Below, one piece after another: positions 13,196 through 18,665 of a stretch of DNA of 64,000 nucleotides. The DNA is from Planctomycetota bacterium (GTDB taxonomy: Bacteria > Planctomycetota > UBA8108 > SXIK01), in the NCBI GenBank assembly GCA_965223845.1, contig CBDCXR010000004.1, positions 2,816,001 to 2,880,000 of the forward strand. Reading direction: 5' to 3'. Every line of letters starts with the position of its first letter. Positions within the stretch are counted from its first letter, which is position 1. Below the pieces are notes generated by a model that had not been told where the DNA came from, made no database searches, and saw nothing but the letters and a program-made list of their open reading frames with translations. The position numbers were made by a program, and so were the translations under genes.

Positions 13196-13596
13196 ACTAG
13201 TTCACTCCCGGATCCGCGCGACTCGGGCCACACTTGCGCGAGCTCTTCGAGCGCGCCGCAGACGAGCTCGGCCGCGTGAACCGAGTCGTCGTCGAGCCCG
13301 CCGGCGCGCGACGAGAGCTCTTCGACGTCGAGCGCGGCGCACTCGGCTCTGGTCCGTCCCACCAACCAGTCGGCGAGGATCGAACCGCAGACGATCGACG
13401 CAGCGCAGCCGTAGACCTGGTAGCGACAGTCCGCGACCTCGCCGCTCGGCCCCCACTGAACGTAGAGATCGATCAGGTCCCCACACCGATCACCCTCGAC
13501 GCGGATCTTGGCGTCCGGATCCGAAAGCACGCCGGCGCGCCTCGGACACGTAAGGTGTTCGTCGAAAGGATTCTTCTCGGGGTCGAGCGGGTCCAT
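13192..13596 (-). CDS. IscU/NifU N-terminal-like scaffold protein
   Basis: EH...PR..G, CGD.I.LY, GCAASI..GS motifs. The stop overlaps the tyrS start. Confidence 0.82.
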   Translation of the reverse strand: MDPLDPEKNPFDEHLTCPRRAGVLSDPDAKIRVEGDRCGDLIDLYVQWGPSGEVADCRYQVYGCAASIVCGSILADWLVGRTRAECAALDVEELSSRAGGLDDDSVHAAELVCGALEELAQVWPESRGSGSELV

Positions 13597-13617
13597 CGCA
13601 CGAGCAACGGACCGAGC

Positions 13618-13935
13618 CTAAAGAAGCTCGTCGAGCTTGCTCTTATACTGCGACTTCGGATAGAGGCCGACGAGCTGATCGACGACCTCACCGCCCTTGA
13701 AGAGAAGCACGGTCGGAACGCTCATGATGCCGTACTTTCCGGCGGTGTCCTGCGCCTTGTCGATGTCGACCTTGCCGACCTTCGCCTTGCCGTTGTACTC
13801 GTCGGCCAGCTCGTCGACGATCGGGGAGAGCTGCTGACACGGCGGGCACCAAGTCGCGCCGAAATCTACGAGAACCGGCTGCTCCGCCTGGAGGACTTCC
13901 GTCTCGAAGTTGGTGTCGTCGAAATCGAGCGCCAT
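13618..13935 (-). CDS. trxA: Thioredoxin
   Basis: VLVDFGATWCPPC, SVPT cis-Pro motif, 105 aa. Confidence 0.95.
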   Translation of the reverse strand: MALDFDDTNFETEVLQAEQPVLVDFGATWCPPCQQLSPIVDELADEYNGKAKVGKVDIDKAQDTAGKYGIMSVPTVLLFKGGEVVDQLVGLYPKSQYKSKLDELL

Positions 13936-14266
13936 CGCTCGCGCCTCCTAACGGGATACAGAAACTCGCTGAACTCGTCCGGCCGGATCCGTCATCGCTG
14001 CCGCGGCCGGTCGGGCGCCGCCCGAGAGGTCCGCAGGGGCCGGAAACGGGGGAGTCTACAACAAAACGCGGCCGCCGCCAAACGCCCTAAAGCCCAGGAT
14101 CGATTCCCGAAAGTCGGCCGCATCCGGGAACTCCTGAAGGTGAGACGCCGCGGACCTGGACGGTCTTACTGAAGCGCTTACAATCGTCCCCTCGGCACGC
14201 TGGTCGTACTCGGACCACCGCTAGAGCCGCCGGAACTCTGCCTCGCCCCTTCTCGTTGGAAGGATC

Positions 14267-16879
14267 ATGAATCACGCCCGCGTCGATCGACCTCTCGCGT
14301 CCCGTCTCCGCTCCCTCCGCCGCAGGCCGAATCAGCCGGCCGCACGTTCGTTCGTGTTCCCTGCCATCGCAATCGTCGCGCTGGCGATCGGGACGGGCGG
14401 CGGCGGGCTCGAGGCCGGGCAAGACATCTTGGGGCTGGGCGGCGGGGCGTCGTCGTCGAAGGTGAAATGGACGTTGTCGGTCGAGCCGACGACCGCGGCT
14501 CCGGGGGACGAGGTGACCGTGAAGGCGGCGTATGATGTCCAGGCGAACTGGTACCTCTATGCCCCAGATCACGATCCAGAGAAGGGGCCGGGTCGCCCCC
14601 TCAGCTTTGCGGCCGGGCACACGTCGTTGTCGCCCGTCGGGGCCGTCCGGTTCCCGAGTCCAGGCGTCAAGCGTCAGGAGGACCTCGGCTGGGAGTTTCG
14701 AATTCTCTCCGGCGAAGGCGCCCTCGAGCAGACGTTTCGCGTGAACTCAGATGCGAGCCCCGGGGACGTCGCGATCGCGGTCAAGATCGAAGGACAGGCC
14801 TGCGACCCATCTCTCTGTATCGACCAATCTTTCGCTGATTCGGTAACTCTTGCCATCGCGACGGCGTCGACGACTTCCGACTCGGCGGCAGCCAGCGTAG
14901 TAGGTACGACGGGCGGTGACGAGAACGAAGGCACGCCGCCCGGTACGCCATCCGTTCTCGAGAGCCCACAAGGCTTGTTCCGTGGAGCCGATTCCACCAA
15001 GTCGCGCGCCTCGTGGCGCTTCGAGGTCGAACCCGCGACGGTGAATCGCGGCGAGACAATTACGATCGCCGCGCACTACAAGCTCGACCACGGTTGGCAT
15101 ATCTACTCGCCGGACTACAAGGGAATCGGAATTCCGACGGCGATCGGTGTCGCGAGCGATCCCACACTCGCGCGCTTCGGTAAGCCCACGTTTCCGCCCC
15201 CGAAGCTCGGAATGATGGCCGGCATGACGGAGCCTCAGCGATGGCTCGAAGGCGAGGGAACGATCCGGCAACGATTTACGGTGCCGCCCGCCGCGAGTCC
15301 CGGCCCGCTCGAGCTTTCCGTGAAAGTCGATTTCCTGACCTGCACGGAAACCCAGTGCCTCCTTCCAGAGGCGGCGTCGGACAGGCTGTCGGTCACCGTA
15401 TCGGACGCACCGCCGGTGCGAGTTCGCGGACTTCCGGCCGGCGACGACCTCGGGCCGGAAGACGCGCCCGCTCCTCCGCGGGCCGAGCCAGACGATGACG
15501 CGGACGAGGTGCCTCTCGGCGATCAGCCGCTCTGGCCATTCATGCTCGTCATGATCGGCGGCGGGCTGTTTACGCTCGTCATGCCGTGCACGTACCCCAT
15601 GATCCCGATCACGATTTCGTACTTTACGAAGCAGGCGGAAGCGAGAAGCGGATCCGTGCTCCCGCTCGCGCTCACGTACGGCGCGGGCATCGTCGTGATC
15701 TTCAGCGTCATCGGAGTGGCATTCGGAGAATCGATCATTCCGTTTGCTCAGTCGTGGCAGCTCAATTTCCTCTTCTTCCTGCTCTTCGTCGTGTTCGCGC
15801 TCGCGCTCTTCGGCATGATCAATCTCCGCCTCCCGGCGTCGTTTTCTAAGCTTGCGGGTCAAGCGTCTCAAAGACAGGGATATCTCGGCGTTTTCATCCT
15901 CGGCACGCTCCTCGTCGTAACGTCGTTCACGTGTACCGCGCCGATTCTCGGTGGACTGCTCTTCGGTGCCGCGGCGGGAGACGTGTCGACGGGTAGACTC
16001 CTCATGGGAATGAGCGTTTTCGGCGGAACCGTTGCCGCTCCGTTCGTGCTCCTCGCACTCTTTCCCGGTCGCGTTCAGAACTTGCCGAAAGCGGGCGAGT
16101 GGATGAACGTTCTCAAAGTGTCGCTCGGCTTCATTGAGCTCGCCGCCGCCGTAAAGTTTCTGTCGACGGCAGACCTGGGCCTCAAGCTCGGCCTTCTCCC
16201 GCGCGAGCTCTTCCTCGTGATCTGGGCCGCGATCGCCGCGGTCCTCGGCTTCTACTTGCTCAATTTCTTCCGCATGAAGACCGACAAGACGGAGTCCATC
16301 GGAGCGATCCGCATGCTGTCGGGGCTCGCGGCGCTCACGCTCTGCTTTTACTTCCTCGTCTGGCCGGTCGCGGGATTCAAGTTCGGCTGGGTCATGGCTT
16401 CGATTCTGCCTCCCTATTCCGCCGAGAAGCGGATCGACCTCGGTGGTGATGCTCCCGCGCCTGCGGGTGTTGACGCCGCGGCGAAAGAAGGGACGCCGTG
16501 GCCGATCGTGAAGGACGACCTCGCCGCAGGGCTCGAGCTCGCGAAGACGCTGGGAAAACCTGCTCTCATCAATTTCACGGGGCACACATGAACGAACTGC
16601 CGACTGATGGAAGTTTCCGTCTTCACGAAACCTGAGATCACGGCGCTTCTCGCGCAGTACGTCGAGGTTCGTCTCCACGTCGACGACCCCGATTCACCGG
16701 AAAAGACGAAGCGGCACCTCGCCTACCGGAATCGACTCGTACAGTCCGTGGCGCTCCCGATCTACGCGATCGTCGAGCCCGACGAACCCGAGACGCTCCT
16801 CAAGCGGTTCGACGGCGCGGACATTTCGGGCAAACGGTTCGGCGCGTTTCTGGAGAACTACCTTCGGAAGCGTGGTTAG
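14267..16879 (+). CDS. dsbD: DsbD-family thiol:disulfide interchange protein, probable selenoprotein (Sec at TGA 16589-16591)
   Basis: Signal peptide; two DsbD-alpha-like domains (CDPSLC, CTETQC); TM domain with MPCTYP and FTCTAP. The thioredoxin domain reads INFTGHT-TGA-TNCRLME and continues in frame into ORF 16607..16879 (ALPIY cis-Pro motif). Confidence 0.85.
16606..16621 (+). promoter_or_regulatory. Candidate bacterial SECIS hairpin
   Basis: GATGGA-AGTT-TCCGTC, a 6-bp stem with one G-U pair and a GU-containing tetraloop starting ~21 nt after the UGA. Confidence 0.5.
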
Positions 16880-17156
16880 GTGTGCGTTCGGCGGCGGCAG
16901 CTCGTCCCGCCGCGCGACCGGCGCCGGCCGCTCCGGTCTGCGCGCGGAGTCTCAGATTCCGGCCGCGTCACGCGGCCCACCCGTCCCCCAAAGCCCTTGC
17001 CCCCGGCTCCAGATCCCTTTAAGCTCGGAACTTAGGCTTTCTCCCCACTCCCACCAGCCTTCCGAGCGATTCCCCCCTTTCGGGTGGGGGCGAAGGAGAT
17101 CTCGTTTGGTTTCGAACCATTCCCCCGATCCCGCACCGCGCGGCGCTCGCCCCTCC

Positions 17157-18665
17157 GTGCCCAGGCCTCGGGTCGCCCGCTCCGCCGTTTCCGTCGCGGC
17201 AGCGCTTCTCCTCGCGGCGATCTTCGCCGGCGGACGAAACGAAGCGTCGGAGACGGCGCCGGCCGGTCATGTGCGCTGCACGGAGTGCGATTCGAAAGGC
17301 CGGGAGAAGTGTCCCGACTGCGCGGGAAAAGGGATGCTCGCCCGAACCTGTCCCGATTGCGGCGGATCCGGCGAGCGCTCCTGCGTCACCTGTTCGGAGG
17401 GTGAGAACGCCGCTGGCGCGGGTCGTGTGCACTGCTCCTACTGCGGAGGCTCGGGGACGACGGGCTCGGACGAGACGCGGGTCTGTCCTCGGTGTAAGGG
17501 GCAGCAGACTCTAGCCTGCCCGTCCTGTTTCGGTCGGGGTCACAAGAACTGCCGGAAGGTCATTCGCGACAAGGTCTGCCCGAGGTGCCGGTTCTCGGGG
17601 CGGATCACGTGCCGGACCTGCGAGGGGAAACGTTGGCTCAATCCAGCCGTGCTGCGGGCGCGGAAGGCGGCGCCGCTCAAGGCGACGAGTACCGCGACGC
17701 CGTCGAGCGCGACTACGCGCGGCGCTAGCGAGACGCTCGACGTCCGCCGAACGATCCGCGACGAATCGGACGATGCGAAGCCCGAGCTCGCTCCGATCCC
17801 CGAGCTCCGCACTCGGTTCGCGAAGCTCGCCCCACGGCTCGACTTGCATTTCGAGCTCTTCGCCAACGACCTCCGGCTCGACGCACGCGACTTCGCCGAT
17901 GATGCGCGCGTGCTCGAGCGCCAAGTTCGGCGCGAATCGTCCGTGGCCCTCGCGAAGATTTCCGAAGAGCTCGAATCCGTGATCGAGTCGTCGCAGCGAT
18001 TCGTTCGGCGGTGGAGCGAGCTGCAGCCCTTGTTCGTACGCGAGTACAAGGCGCACGAAAACGCGACCCGTACCTGGGAGACCTACGACAAGCGATCGCG
18101 CGGACTCACCGGATCCCGCCTCGCCCGCCTCGAGAAGGAATACCACGGGCGCCTGTCGACGACGACCCGCATCGCCGAGTCGCGCACGCGAGAGCTCAGC
18201 GAGAAGAATCCCGAGGGACTCCAAGCCGATTTGAAGGCGATGCGTCTCACCGTGGCCGAGCTCGCGAAGCGGTCGAAGCGCGAACTCAAACTCGCGGCGG
18301 CGGAACGGAAAGCGGCCGAGGCCGCCGCCGAGACCGACGCCCGATCGCGCGACCCCGCTCCCGACTCGGGATCAGCGAAGCGGCAGAACCGACGCTCGTC
18401 CGCCACCGGACGGTCGAACGGGACAAAGTCGCGCGCCGCGTGGATCACGTCGGCGAATCGGTCATCGCAGCGCGACGAAGACTCCGGCGCGCGGGCGGAA
18501 TCTCGCCGAGATCGCTCCGATCGAGCGGCGCCGAAACGCAAGGACGACGAAGCCGACGGCGGTGGAGGCTCGTTCGGCCCGGTAGTCGCGGCCGTCGTCG
18601 GCTTCCTCGTCGCGTGCGGAGTGTTCCTTCTTCGCGGGTTTTTCCGCGGGCGGTTGACGGGTTGA
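17157..18665 (+). CDS. Exported protein with CxxCxGxG (DnaJ-type zinc finger) repeats, coiled coil and GlyGly-CTERM-like anchor
   Basis: N-terminal hydrophobic signal; 9 CxxC motifs; C-terminus GGGGSFG + TM + Arg-rich tail. Start inferred (GTG 17157). Confidence 0.7.
   Translation: MPRPRVARSAVSVAAALLLAAIFAGGRNEASETAPAGHVRCTECDSKGREKCPDCAGKGMLARTCPDCGGSGERSCVTCSEGENAAGAGRVHCSYCGGSGTTGSDETRVCPRCKGQQTLACPSCFGRGHKNCRKVIRDKVCPRCRFSGRITCRTCEGKRWLNPAVLRARKAAPLKATSTATPSSATTRGASETLDVRRTIRDESDDAKPELAPIPELRTRFAKLAPRLDLHFELFANDLRLDARDFADDARVLERQVRRESSVALAKISEELESVIESSQRFVRRWSELQPLFVREYKAHENATRTWETYDKRSRGLTGSRLARLEKEYHGRLSTTTRIAESRTRELSEKNPEGLQADLKAMRLTVAELAKRSKRELKLAAAERKAAEAAAETDARSRDPAPDSGSAKRQNRRSSATGRSNGTKSRAAWITSANRSSQRDEDSGARAESRRDRSDRAAPKRKDDEADGGGGSFGPVVAAVVGFLVACGVFLLRGFFRGRLTG

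What the first reader, a model, noticed from the sequence alone, without database searches (positions are those of the whole stretch)
14267..16879. DsbD-like protein with a UxxC thioredoxin motif: probable unannotated selenoprotein
Seen: the 774-aa ORF stops at TGA 16589-16591 inside NFTGHT*, and the same frame continues T-N-C-R-L-M-E into ORF 16607..16879, completing a thioredoxin fold. The TGA sits exactly where the first Cys of the DsbD-gamma CxxC belongs. A GATGGA-AGTT-TCCGTC hairpin follows at SECIS-like distance. Known: in-frame UGA aligned to a catalytic Cys (UxxC) is the hallmark of bacterial selenoproteins. Inferred: an 870-aa periplasm-facing electron relay with Sec775. It also has two DsbD-alpha-like domains instead of one.
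Basis: partly seen in the sequence, partly recalled or inferred. Interest (0 to 1): 0.85.

Follow-up and report, generated by a model that had tools for sequence, protein, structure and literature searches.

The report
DsbD-type membrane reductase with selenocysteine
This gene encodes a membrane protein that carries reducing power out of the cell interior and almost certainly uses selenocysteine, written as a TGA "stop", at its active site; it is a real but mis-annotated member of a kind of selenoprotein already catalogued.

Summary
The 774-codon frame from 14267 stops at TGA 16589-16591 and continues in frame to TAG 16877-16879, giving 870 residues.

The protein has a signal anchor, two DsbD_N (alpha) domains, a DsbD transmembrane domain and a thioredoxin-fold gamma domain. 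The TGA lies at the first Cys of its CxxC (FTGHT-U-TNC).

The selenoprotein reading is strongly supported:
- The TGA sits in the same column in 42 of 42 checked TGA-bearing loci, at 30-55% identity.
- The column is TGT or TGC in 98 of 98 Cys forms.
- The genome has selA, selB, selD and tRNA-Sec, and neighbouring genes use TGA as an ordinary stop.
- Stems of 6 bp or more start 12-24 nt after the codon in 35 of 41 Sec loci, against 8 of 21 and 10 of 77 Cys loci.

The window's own hairpin is weak when judged alone.

The Sec form is widespread in the phylum, probably Planctomycetota. This gene is the only DsbD_TM match found in its genome.

UxxC "thiol:disulfide interchange" selenoproteins were catalogued in 2004-2008, so this is a new member of a known kind. 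Reads could not be checked.

The parts
14267..16879 (+). Full coding sequence of the DsbD-family selenoprotein: 870 residues, with TGA at codon 775 read as Sec and a true stop at TAG 16877-16879.
   Evidence: The public protein on record for this gene is the 774-aa truncation (P0003).
14348..14404 (+). N-terminal hydrophobic signal or anchor segment (about residues 28-46), preceded by an Arg-rich stretch.
   Evidence: Hydropathy scan and translation. Its role as a signal or anchor is inferred.
14492..14824 (+). Alpha-like domain 1 (DsbD_N, about residues 76-186) with the Cys pair C179/C184 (C-x4-C).
   Evidence: Pfam PF11412 scores 26.8 bits when this half is scanned alone.
15038..15382 (+). 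Alpha-like domain 2 (DsbD_N, about residues 258-372) with the Cys pair C359/C364.
   Evidence: Pfam PF11412 scores 35.0 bits alone, with the best stretch at 259-371.
15533..16369 (+). Transmembrane beta domain (DsbD_TM 423-633 plus two further hydrophobic segments to about residue 701). It carries the conserved C441 (PCTYP, first TM) and C556 (SFTCTAP, fourth TM).
   Evidence: Pfam PF02683 scores 92.9 bits. Both Cys are invariant in the alignment with 11 Cys homologues.
16454..16876 (+). Gamma domain (residues 730-870), a thioredoxin fold with the active site U775-T-N-C778 and the conserved cis-Pro-type 'LPxY'.
   Evidence: Pfam Thioredoxin_7 scores 33.1 bits against a cut-off of 27. PDB sequence match is 3f9u at E 2.6e-9. 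The AlphaFold2 model has pLDDT 93.5, with the Sec position just before helix 47-56. Foldseek finds 3f9u and the E. coli DsbD gamma entries 1vrs, 2fwf and 1uc7.
16589..16591 (+). TGA codon 775, read as selenocysteine, at the first position of the CxxC.
16606..16621 (+). SECIS-like hairpin GAUGGA-AGUU-UCCGUC: 6 bp including one G-U, G at the second loop position, 5' arm starting 14 nt after the UGA. The 5' arm lies on the Met-Glu codons.
   Evidence: for the window. Searches give the comparative support.
17244..18665 (+). Conserved downstream neighbour and possible client (inferred): an exported protein with Cys-rich CxxCxGxG-like repeats, a long helical region and a C-terminal hydrophobic anchor. 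Its true start lies inside the listed ORF 16872..18665.
   Evidence: Translation is. tblastn finds it just downstream of the gene in 9 of the 21 other Sec loci L021-L041. The only Pfam match is a weak DnaJ_CXXCXGXG hit, 15.5 bits against a cut-off of 32.7.

Best explanation
The gene encodes one 870-residue inner-membrane protein of the DsbD family, and UGA-775 is decoded as selenocysteine by SelB and tRNA-Sec. Decoding is helped by a small hairpin that starts 14 nt downstream.

The layout is: signal anchor; two periplasmic alpha (DsbD_N) domains, each with a C-x4-C pair; an eight-helix beta domain with one Cys in helix 1 and one in helix 4; and a periplasmic thioredoxin-fold gamma domain with U775-x-x-C778.

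By analogy with DsbD (inferred), electrons from cytoplasmic thioredoxin pass through the two membrane cysteines to the gamma U/C pair. From there they go to an alpha-domain disulfide, and then to periplasmic clients such as cytochrome c maturation and disulfide isomerisation or repair. Sec occupies the exposed, attacking position of the gamma motif. There a selenolate would be a faster nucleophile and leaving group than a thiolate (established selenium chemistry, not tested here).

Shown here: the sequence features, the conservation of the TGA, the Cys/Sec alignment, the Sec machinery, the hairpin enrichment and the fold. Inferred: actual Se insertion, the direction of electron flow and the clients.
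For: (1) The TGA is in frame, and protein-level conservation continues across it. The gamma domains of 23 other Sec forms are 25-44% identical to the window's, with an invariant second Cys and Pro.

(2) The column is the same in every case. TGA sits at the first CxxC position in 42 of 42 TGA-bearing loci inspected, and Cys is there in 98 of 98 others. Eleven of 11 database Cys homologues have Cys at both positions.

(3) The Sec form is widespread. By my count of the table, 48 of 61 relatives have a match holding exactly one TGA. In a 301-genome sample of the phylum, 86 of the 150 listed rows have one TGA, against 35 rows without a stop that span the site; 122 further rows were not listed.

(4) The Sec machinery is present in the genome:
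- selD, 307.8 bits
- selA, 536.2 bits
- selB, 320 bits, or 352.7 with its C-terminal piece
- tRNA-Sec, 68.1 bits, called tRNA-SeC (tca) by ARAGORN

(5) TGA is an ordinary stop for six neighbouring ORFs, among them CysRS.

(6) A contiguous stem of at least 6 bp starting 12-24 nt after the codon occurs in 35 of 41 Sec loci. It occurs in 8 of 21 same-phylum Cys loci and 10 of 77 other Cys loci. Mean MFE is -12.4 kcal/mol (z -1.68) for 22 Sec loci against -7.4 (z +0.11) for 78 Cys loci (mononucleotide shuffles). In the longer register, pairs 18-40 and 25-33 show changes on both sides, and 0 of 500 shuffles reach the observed covariation score.

(7) The window protein sits in a clade of 26 rows that are all Sec (SH-aLRT 100).

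(8) Domains and fold are supported.

(9) Further Thioredoxin_7 matches with in-frame TGA at CxxC-type motifs exist in the same genome. Sec use in such domains is therefore not isolated.
Against: No direct evidence of selenium insertion or of the full-length product exists. The window's own hairpin is short and not distinguishable from shuffled sequence. In the short register there is no compensatory change at all. The 5' arm is the conserved Met-Glu codons, so part of the 'conservation' of the hairpin comes from protein constraint. Reads covering the TGA could not be inspected because the tool was unreachable. The protein does not reach NCBIfam's DsbD cut-off (135.4 against 330 bits), so transferring the mechanism from E. 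coli DsbD is by analogy. Relatives are kin, so counts across genomes are not independent events.
Confidence: 0.88

Rival explanations
1. The TGA is a true stop. It would arise from a nonsense mutation, a pseudogene or a sequencing error, leaving a truncated alpha-beta protein without its gamma domain.
For: Public annotation treats it this way: the record's product is 774 aa. Reads were not inspected.
Against: The same codon sits at the same column in 41 other independently assembled loci at 30-55% identity, and the downstream thioredoxin domain is conserved as protein. A dead tail would not keep its fold (pLDDT 93.5) or its invariant second Cys and cis-Pro.
Confidence: 0.02
2. Termination at UGA is the main outcome, and Sec insertion is only a minor or conditional read-through. 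The cell would mostly make a 774-residue alpha-beta protein, with the full-length form appearing only when selenium is plentiful, as a selenium-dependent switch.
For: The window's SECIS-like hairpin is weak. Competition between release factor and SelB at UGA is general knowledge.
Against: This is the only DsbD_TM match in the genome. A gamma-less product would lack the relay step seen in the disulfide-linked alpha-gamma complex of DsbD (title of 1vrs). The UGA has been kept across a 26-row all-Sec clade.
Confidence: 0.06
3. UGA here is read as another residue (Cys or Trp) by near-cognate suppression or local recoding, not as Sec.
For: None specific. A Cys at this site would be functional, since Cys forms exist.
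Against: A complete Sec machinery is present. TGA is the normal stop of neighbouring genes. A structure is enriched at SECIS distance only in TGA forms. Position-specific TGA aligned to a redox Cys is the recognised signature of Sec (reviews seen).
Confidence: 0.03

Closest known systems
E. coli-type DsbD (protein-disulfide reductase; alpha, beta and gamma domains)
   Same: The order of domains is the same: a periplasmic DsbD_N domain, a DsbD_TM domain with one Cys in TM1 and one in TM4, and a C-terminal thioredoxin-fold domain with a dithiol motif. The gamma model matches solved DsbD gamma structures.
   Different: The first residue of the gamma motif is Sec, not Cys. There are two alpha domains instead of one. 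The score is below NCBIfam's DsbD cut-off (135.4 against 330). The gamma domain is best described by Thioredoxin_7 and is closest to the Bacteroides entry 3f9u.
[quoted passage not shown]
   Same: Both have a UxxC motif in a thioredoxin-like domain of a thiol:disulfide interchange protein, with many Cys homologues. The tables in PMC13188914, PMC9312934, PMC1794560 and PMC2398784 were seen as passages. That cd02953 is the DsbD-gamma model is my recollection, not a call.
   Different: The reviews label the exemplar (WP_011366075.1) with PF13098, which this protein misses (20.1 against 27 bits). None of the passages I saw describes a full-length alpha-alpha-beta-gamma membrane protein. I could not obtain the exemplar sequence or the 2004 paper, so identity of the families is untested.
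TsoB, rhodanese/DsbD fusion-like selenoprotein (NF045694)
   Same: It is a selenoprotein that contains a DsbD-type transmembrane domain. The shared region gives 130.2 bits.
   Different: The cut-off is 805 bits. The Sec motif listed in the review is UxxxxU, tied to a rhodanese-like domain. Here Sec is in the gamma thioredoxin domain and there is no rhodanese domain.
ScsB-type reductases with an enlarged N-terminal domain (recalled, not tested)
   Same: They are DsbD relatives whose periplasmic N-terminal part is about twice as long as that of DsbD.
   Different: This comparison is recalled from the literature only. No ScsB model or sequence was compared here, and known ScsB proteins use Cys.

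Membership tests
Bacterial selenoprotein (UGA decoded by SelB/tRNA-Sec) | In-frame UGA aligned with a Cys in homologues | tested here: met
   Among 140 loci, 98 have TGT or TGC and 42 have TGA at one column. Eleven of 11 database homologues have Cys there.
Bacterial selenoprotein (UGA decoded by SelB/tRNA-Sec) | UGA conserved in orthologues, with coding conservation continuing downstream | tested here: met
   Searches cover the UGA. The gamma-domain alignment A3 and a high-confidence fold of the read-through tail cover the downstream sequence.
Bacterial selenoprotein (UGA decoded by SelB/tRNA-Sec) | Stem-loop shortly downstream of the UGA with G in the apical loop (bacterial SECIS) | tested here: met
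   The window has a 6-bp stem 14 nt after the UGA with loop AGUU. Stems of at least 6 bp occur in 35 of 41 Sec loci, against 8 of 21 and 10 of 77 Cys loci. The distance and loop rule is recalled from bSECISearch descriptions, not run here.
Bacterial selenoprotein (UGA decoded by SelB/tRNA-Sec) | The hairpin of this particular gene is more stable than chance | tested here: inconclusive
   z is -0.72, and 50 of 200 shuffles fold as well. For the 65-nt stretch z is -0.96.
Bacterial selenoprotein (UGA decoded by SelB/tRNA-Sec) | selA, selB, selC and selD in the genome | tested here: met
   all over the curated cut-offs.
Bacterial selenoprotein (UGA decoded by SelB/tRNA-Sec) | Selenium actually incorporated into the protein | not testable with these tools
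   This needs 75Se labelling or mass spectrometry.
DsbD family (alpha-beta-gamma protein-disulfide reductase) | N-terminal DsbD_N domain with a redox Cys pair | tested here: met
   There are two such domains, at 26.8 and 35.0 bits against a cut-off of 25. The pairs are C179/C184 and C359/C364.
DsbD family (alpha-beta-gamma protein-disulfide reductase) | DsbD_TM domain with one conserved Cys in TM1 and one in TM4 | tested here: met
   PF02683 scores 92.9 bits. C441 and C556 are invariant in alignment A1.
DsbD family (alpha-beta-gamma protein-disulfide reductase) | C-terminal thioredoxin-fold domain with CxxC | tested here: met
   It is present as UxxC. Support comes from Pfam, 3f9u, the model and the DsbD gamma structures found by Foldseek.
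DsbD family (alpha-beta-gamma protein-disulfide reductase) | Score over NCBIfam NF001419 (DsbD subfamily) cut-off | tested here: not met
   135.4 bits against 330. It is a DsbD-family relative, not an E. coli-type DsbD.
Published 'thiol:disulfide interchange protein' selenoprotein family | UxxC in a thioredoxin-like domain | tested here: met
   The family motif is as listed in the tables seen.
Published 'thiol:disulfide interchange protein' selenoprotein family | Homology to the exemplar WP_011366075.1, or the PF13098 label | tested here: inconclusive
   PF13098 scores 20.1 bits, below its cut-off of 27.
TsoB (NF045694) | Score over cut-off and a UxxxxU motif | tested here: not met
   130.2 bits against 805. 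The motif here is UxxC.
Trx7/PDZ selenoprotein (NF041199) | Score over cut-off and a CxxU motif | tested here: not met
   24.6 bits against 300. Sec is in the first position of the motif here, not the last.

The most novel reading that the evidence does not exclude
In a large part of this phylum (probably Planctomycetota), the only DsbD-type conduit of reducing power into the periplasm has selenocysteine at the attacking position of its gamma domain. Cytochrome c maturation and periplasmic thiol homeostasis would then depend on selenium supply. The Sec form would be old, with one deep all-Sec clade, and would have reverted to Cys several times. It has also been circularly permuted in one genus without losing the Sec.
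Probability: 0.35. Interest if true: 0.6.

Novelty: new member of a known kind. Interest (0 to 1): 0.45.

Why it matters
Annotation pipelines cut this gene at codon 774, as the public product shows, and so hide the catalytic gamma domain of what seems to be the genome's only DsbD-type reductase. The same truncation probably affects many related genomes: 86 of the 150 listed rows in a 301-genome sample of the phylum have one TGA. No NCBIfam model reaches its cut-off on this protein.

It is also a natural pair of Sec and Cys versions of one membrane electron relay. That makes it a convenient system for asking what selenium buys in thiol-disulfide exchange outside the cytoplasm, and whether selenium limits respiration-related maturation in these bacteria.

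Tried and rejected
- Single-sequence folding of the region after the TGA gave nothing significant.
- An Rfam scan of 16450-16800 at E up to 10 gave only a chance lncRNA hit at 13.5 bits. As far as I recall, Rfam holds no bacterial SECIS family, so this says little.
- My first script picked the longest open frame per locus and failed in these GC-rich loci. It was replaced by tblastn-anchored extraction.
- The short-register hairpin shows no compensatory change.
- Pfam on eight neighbouring ORFs found no redox partner: TyrRS, CysRS, FG-GAP/GDSL proteins and three ORFs without hits.
- An ESM Atlas look-up of the downstream Cys-rich protein gave only a 0.87 hit to an unnamed cluster.
- The look-up of sequencing runs was unreachable six times, so read laying was never used and the TGA was not checked in reads.
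- The 2004 'prokaryotic selenoproteome' paper is not held.
- Table S9 of PMC4807772 lists selenoprotein candidates of two planctomycetes and might name this family. It is a supplement and could not be seen.
- Literature searches: 'selenoprotein' + 'DsbD' gave 9 papers, and I opened only the 2026 review among them, where the sole DsbD mention is TsoB. 'selenocysteine' + 'protein-disulfide reductase' + 'DsbD' gave 0 papers.
- I rejected a global reassignment of TGA, because six neighbouring ORFs end in TGA.
- I rejected a split gene, because the 90-aa ORF begins at the conserved Met of the RxME motif and lacks the first active-site residue.
Full report
**Observation.** The ORF 14267..16591 (774 aa) ends at TGA 16589-16591, and the ORF 16607..16879 lies in the same frame. 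The sequence reads ...ggg cac aca TGA acg aac tgc cga ctg atg gaa.... Translated with TGA=U, the frame is open from 14267 to TAG 16877-16879. It gives 870 residues with ...LINFTGHT-U-TNCRLMEVSVF....

**Anatomy.**
- Pfam finds DsbD_TM (residues 423-633, 92.9 bits), DsbD_N in two stretches, and Thioredoxin_7 (749-838, 33.1 bits against a cut-off of 27).
- Scanned separately, the two N-terminal halves each pass the DsbD_N cut-off, at 26.8 and 35.0 bits against 25.
- The protein has only nine Cys/Sec positions. Eight are in canonical redox places: C179/C184 and C359/C364 (a C-x4-C in each alpha domain), C441 (first TM), C556 (fourth TM), and U775/C778.
- Hydropathy gives an N-terminal anchor and seven clear hydrophobic segments between residues 421 and 701. 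I read an eighth, less hydrophobic helix at about 610-635 by eye from the sequence; it did not reach the scan's threshold. Eight helices would place both the alpha domains and the gamma domain on the same, periplasmic side, as in DsbD (topology inferred).
- An AlphaFold2 model of residues 730-870, built on 46 aligned gamma domains, has mean pLDDT 93.5. It has a thioredoxin-type strand/helix order, with the Sec position just before a helix.
- Foldseek's best solved matches are the C-terminal domain of a Bacteroides 'cytochrome c biogenesis-related' protein (3f9u) and several E. coli DsbD gamma entries. One of these is 1vrs, the disulfide-linked alpha-gamma complex.
- phmmer against PDB sequences aligns the CVNC of 3f9u to U-TNC.

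**Is the TGA a selenocysteine codon?**
- A search of 61 related genomes with the C-terminal 470 residues found matches holding exactly one TGA in 48 of 61 genomes. That is my count of the table. Identities range from 57% down to 31%, across several families of the class.
- In all 20 loci returned, tblastn places the stop at the same column, FTGxT-*-xNC.
- Eleven database homologues that are full length through this domain all have Cys at both positions (DFTGxTCxNCR).
- A pattern scan of one genome per species returned 80 further loci. Two of them, named Planctomycetota MAGs, have TGA at the column. The other 78, mostly Bacteroidota, Acidobacteriota and others, have TGT or TGC.
- A 301-genome sample of the window's phylum listed 150 rows. 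By my count, 86 hold one TGA and 35 span the site without a stop. A further 122 rows were not listed.
- I fetched 20 rows of each kind. All 20 'TGA' rows have the TGA at the CxxC column, and all 20 'none' rows have Cys there.
- In total, 140 loci gave 42 TGA and 98 Cys, and nothing else.
- The gamma domain beyond the TGA is conserved as protein in the Sec forms, including the second Cys and the Pro of 'LPxY'.

**Machinery and code.** The genome (7.93 Mb in 4 contigs) has selD, selA, selB and a tRNA-Sec with anticodon TCA, all over the curated cut-offs. Six neighbouring ORFs, among them the Pfam-supported CysRS and two FG-GAP proteins, end in TGA; TyrRS ends in TAA. TGA is therefore the ordinary stop here and is recoded only locally.

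**SECIS.**
- The window's hairpin is GAUGGA/AGUU/UCCGUC, starting 14 nt after the UGA with G at loop position 2. It is the predicted fold but is not distinguishable from shuffles (z -0.72). On its own it proves nothing.
- Every relative has a hairpin whose 5' arm uses the same AUGGA (the Met-Glu codons). These fall into two registers: a short one with loops such as GGUC and GGGC, and a longer one of 9-12 bp with z -2.9 to -4.3.
- The short register shows no compensatory change.
- The long register has three pairs with changes on both sides, and 0 of 500 shuffles reach its covariation score.
- As a control against protein constraint, I compared Sec and Cys genes at the same position:

| Measure | Sec loci | Same-phylum Cys loci | Other Cys loci |
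|---|---|---|---|
| Contiguous stem of at least 6 bp starting 12-24 nt after the codon | 35 of 41 | 8 of 21 | 10 of 77 |
| Mean MFE of +9..+50, kcal/mol (z) | -12.4 (z -1.68), 22 loci | -7.4 (z +0.11), 78 Cys loci pooled | pooled with previous column |

- In one search, one Sec locus holding N was dropped. The shuffles were mononucleotide shuffles.
- The Sec forms of the short register carry Ser (UCC) where Cys forms carry Asn, Val, Thr or Asp. This is what the stem requires.

**Evolution.** A maximum-likelihood tree was built from 91 rows: 42 Sec, 20 same-phylum Cys and 29 Cys rows from L042-L070. The 49 loci L071-L119 were left out for speed, and the Sec site was coded the same in all rows. 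The tree puts the window's protein in a clade of 26 rows that are all Sec (SH-aLRT 100). It needs at least 5 Sec/Cys changes, 3 of them forced by well-supported branches. No direction of change is claimed, because the root is only a midpoint.

**Two alpha domains.** By phmmer with the window's two alpha domains, 18 of the 22 Sec loci L020-L041 show two or more alpha-like regions. Only 1 of the 78 Cys loci does, although six more have long N-termini with two C-x4-C pairs. Several Sec relatives keep the Cys pair in only one of the two domains. A close Cys form with two alpha domains also exists (P0005, 925 aa). The doubling is therefore a trait of this lineage, not of the Sec forms as such.

**Function and context.**
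- PF02683 matches only this gene in the genome, which is 91.7% complete.
- A CcsA-type cytochrome c synthase is present, with a weak ResB match in the same 730-aa open frame. A reductant route to the periplasm is therefore needed, and this protein is the only candidate of its family found (inference).
- Directly downstream lies an exported protein that is conserved in 9 of the 21 other Sec loci. It has five or six CxxCxGxG-like repeats, a helical region and a C-terminal anchor. It is a plausible client, but nothing tests that.
- The mechanism in the best explanation is transferred from DsbD. The direct alpha-gamma disulfide is documented by the title of 1vrs. The roles of individual residues are recalled knowledge.

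**What is known.**
- The tables of the 2026 and 2022 reviews list a 'Thiol:disulfide interchange protein' selenoprotein (UxxC, PF13098, exemplar WP_011366075.1) attributed to the 2004 survey.
- The 2006 survey lists it in three genomes, including Geobacter and Syntrophus.
[quoted passage not shown] I recall cd02953 as the DsbD-gamma model.
- I saw passages of these papers, not the whole texts.
- The only DsbD mention in the 2026 review is TsoB, a different protein.
- NCBIfam has no model that this protein passes.
- The public product of this gene is the 774-aa truncation.

I therefore file it as a new, mis-annotated member of a known kind of selenoprotein. The full-length architecture, the phylum-wide spread and the sole-copy status are not stated in what I could read.

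**Not done.** Reads were not checked because the tool was unreachable. The 2004 paper is not held. Supplementary Table S9 of PMC4807772 could not be seen.

Noticed in passing
L172:1031-3553 (-) = G004:C1; the same arrangement in G006, G010 and G018, and in pieces in G013: In one related genus the Sec-DsbD is circularly permuted within a single 840-aa frame: alpha1-alpha2, then TM5-8, then the gamma domain with UxxC, then TM1-4 at the C-terminus. Window residues 577-864 match its residues 402-669, and window residues 422-572 match its residues 681-831. The 4+4 helix split keeps the topology. Other genomes of the same genus have the usual order.
   Followed up: partly
window 17244-18665 (+), inside the listed ORF 16872..18665: An exported Cys-rich protein with repeated CxxCxGxG-like motifs, a long helical region and a C-terminal hydrophobic anchor. 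It is conserved directly downstream of the reductase gene in 9 of 21 related Sec loci. It has no Pfam family over cut-off, and the only Atlas hit is an unnamed, mainly planctomycete cluster at 0.87.
   Followed up: partly
own genome outside the window: G000:C4:2162695-2162940 (-), C4:862897-863145 (-), C4:5876514-5876705 (-); loci L163, L165, L166: Three more Thioredoxin_7 matches hold in-frame TGA at redox motifs. One is a small exported protein with W-U-PAC. Two are proteins with FR-U-xP-U-xxC (two TGA each), which have a Cys paralogue (FRCVPCDAC) at C4:325631-325825. They are likely further unannotated selenoproteins.
   Followed up: partly
L001 = G000:C4:5315741-5319661: The selD match lies in an open frame of 809 aa, far longer than the 311-position selD model. 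This suggests a fusion with another domain. SelD fusions are mentioned in the GOS paper passage seen.
   Followed up: no
L033-L039 (families f6 and f4 of the class): These Sec forms carry about 100 extra residues after the thioredoxin domain: 239-243 codons from 45 residues before the Sec to the stop, against 131-153 in the others.
   Followed up: no
window 58817-59085 (-): tRNA-Ala (TGC) and tRNA-Ile (GAT) lie side by side, the usual spacer pair of a ribosomal RNA operon.
   Followed up: no
window 13234-14172 (+): This 312-aa ORF upstream of the gene has no Pfam hit and a composition that looks like the reverse reading of a gene on the other strand. Even so, tblastn finds about 40% identity to two related loci. 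The true gene in this interval was not resolved.
   Followed up: no
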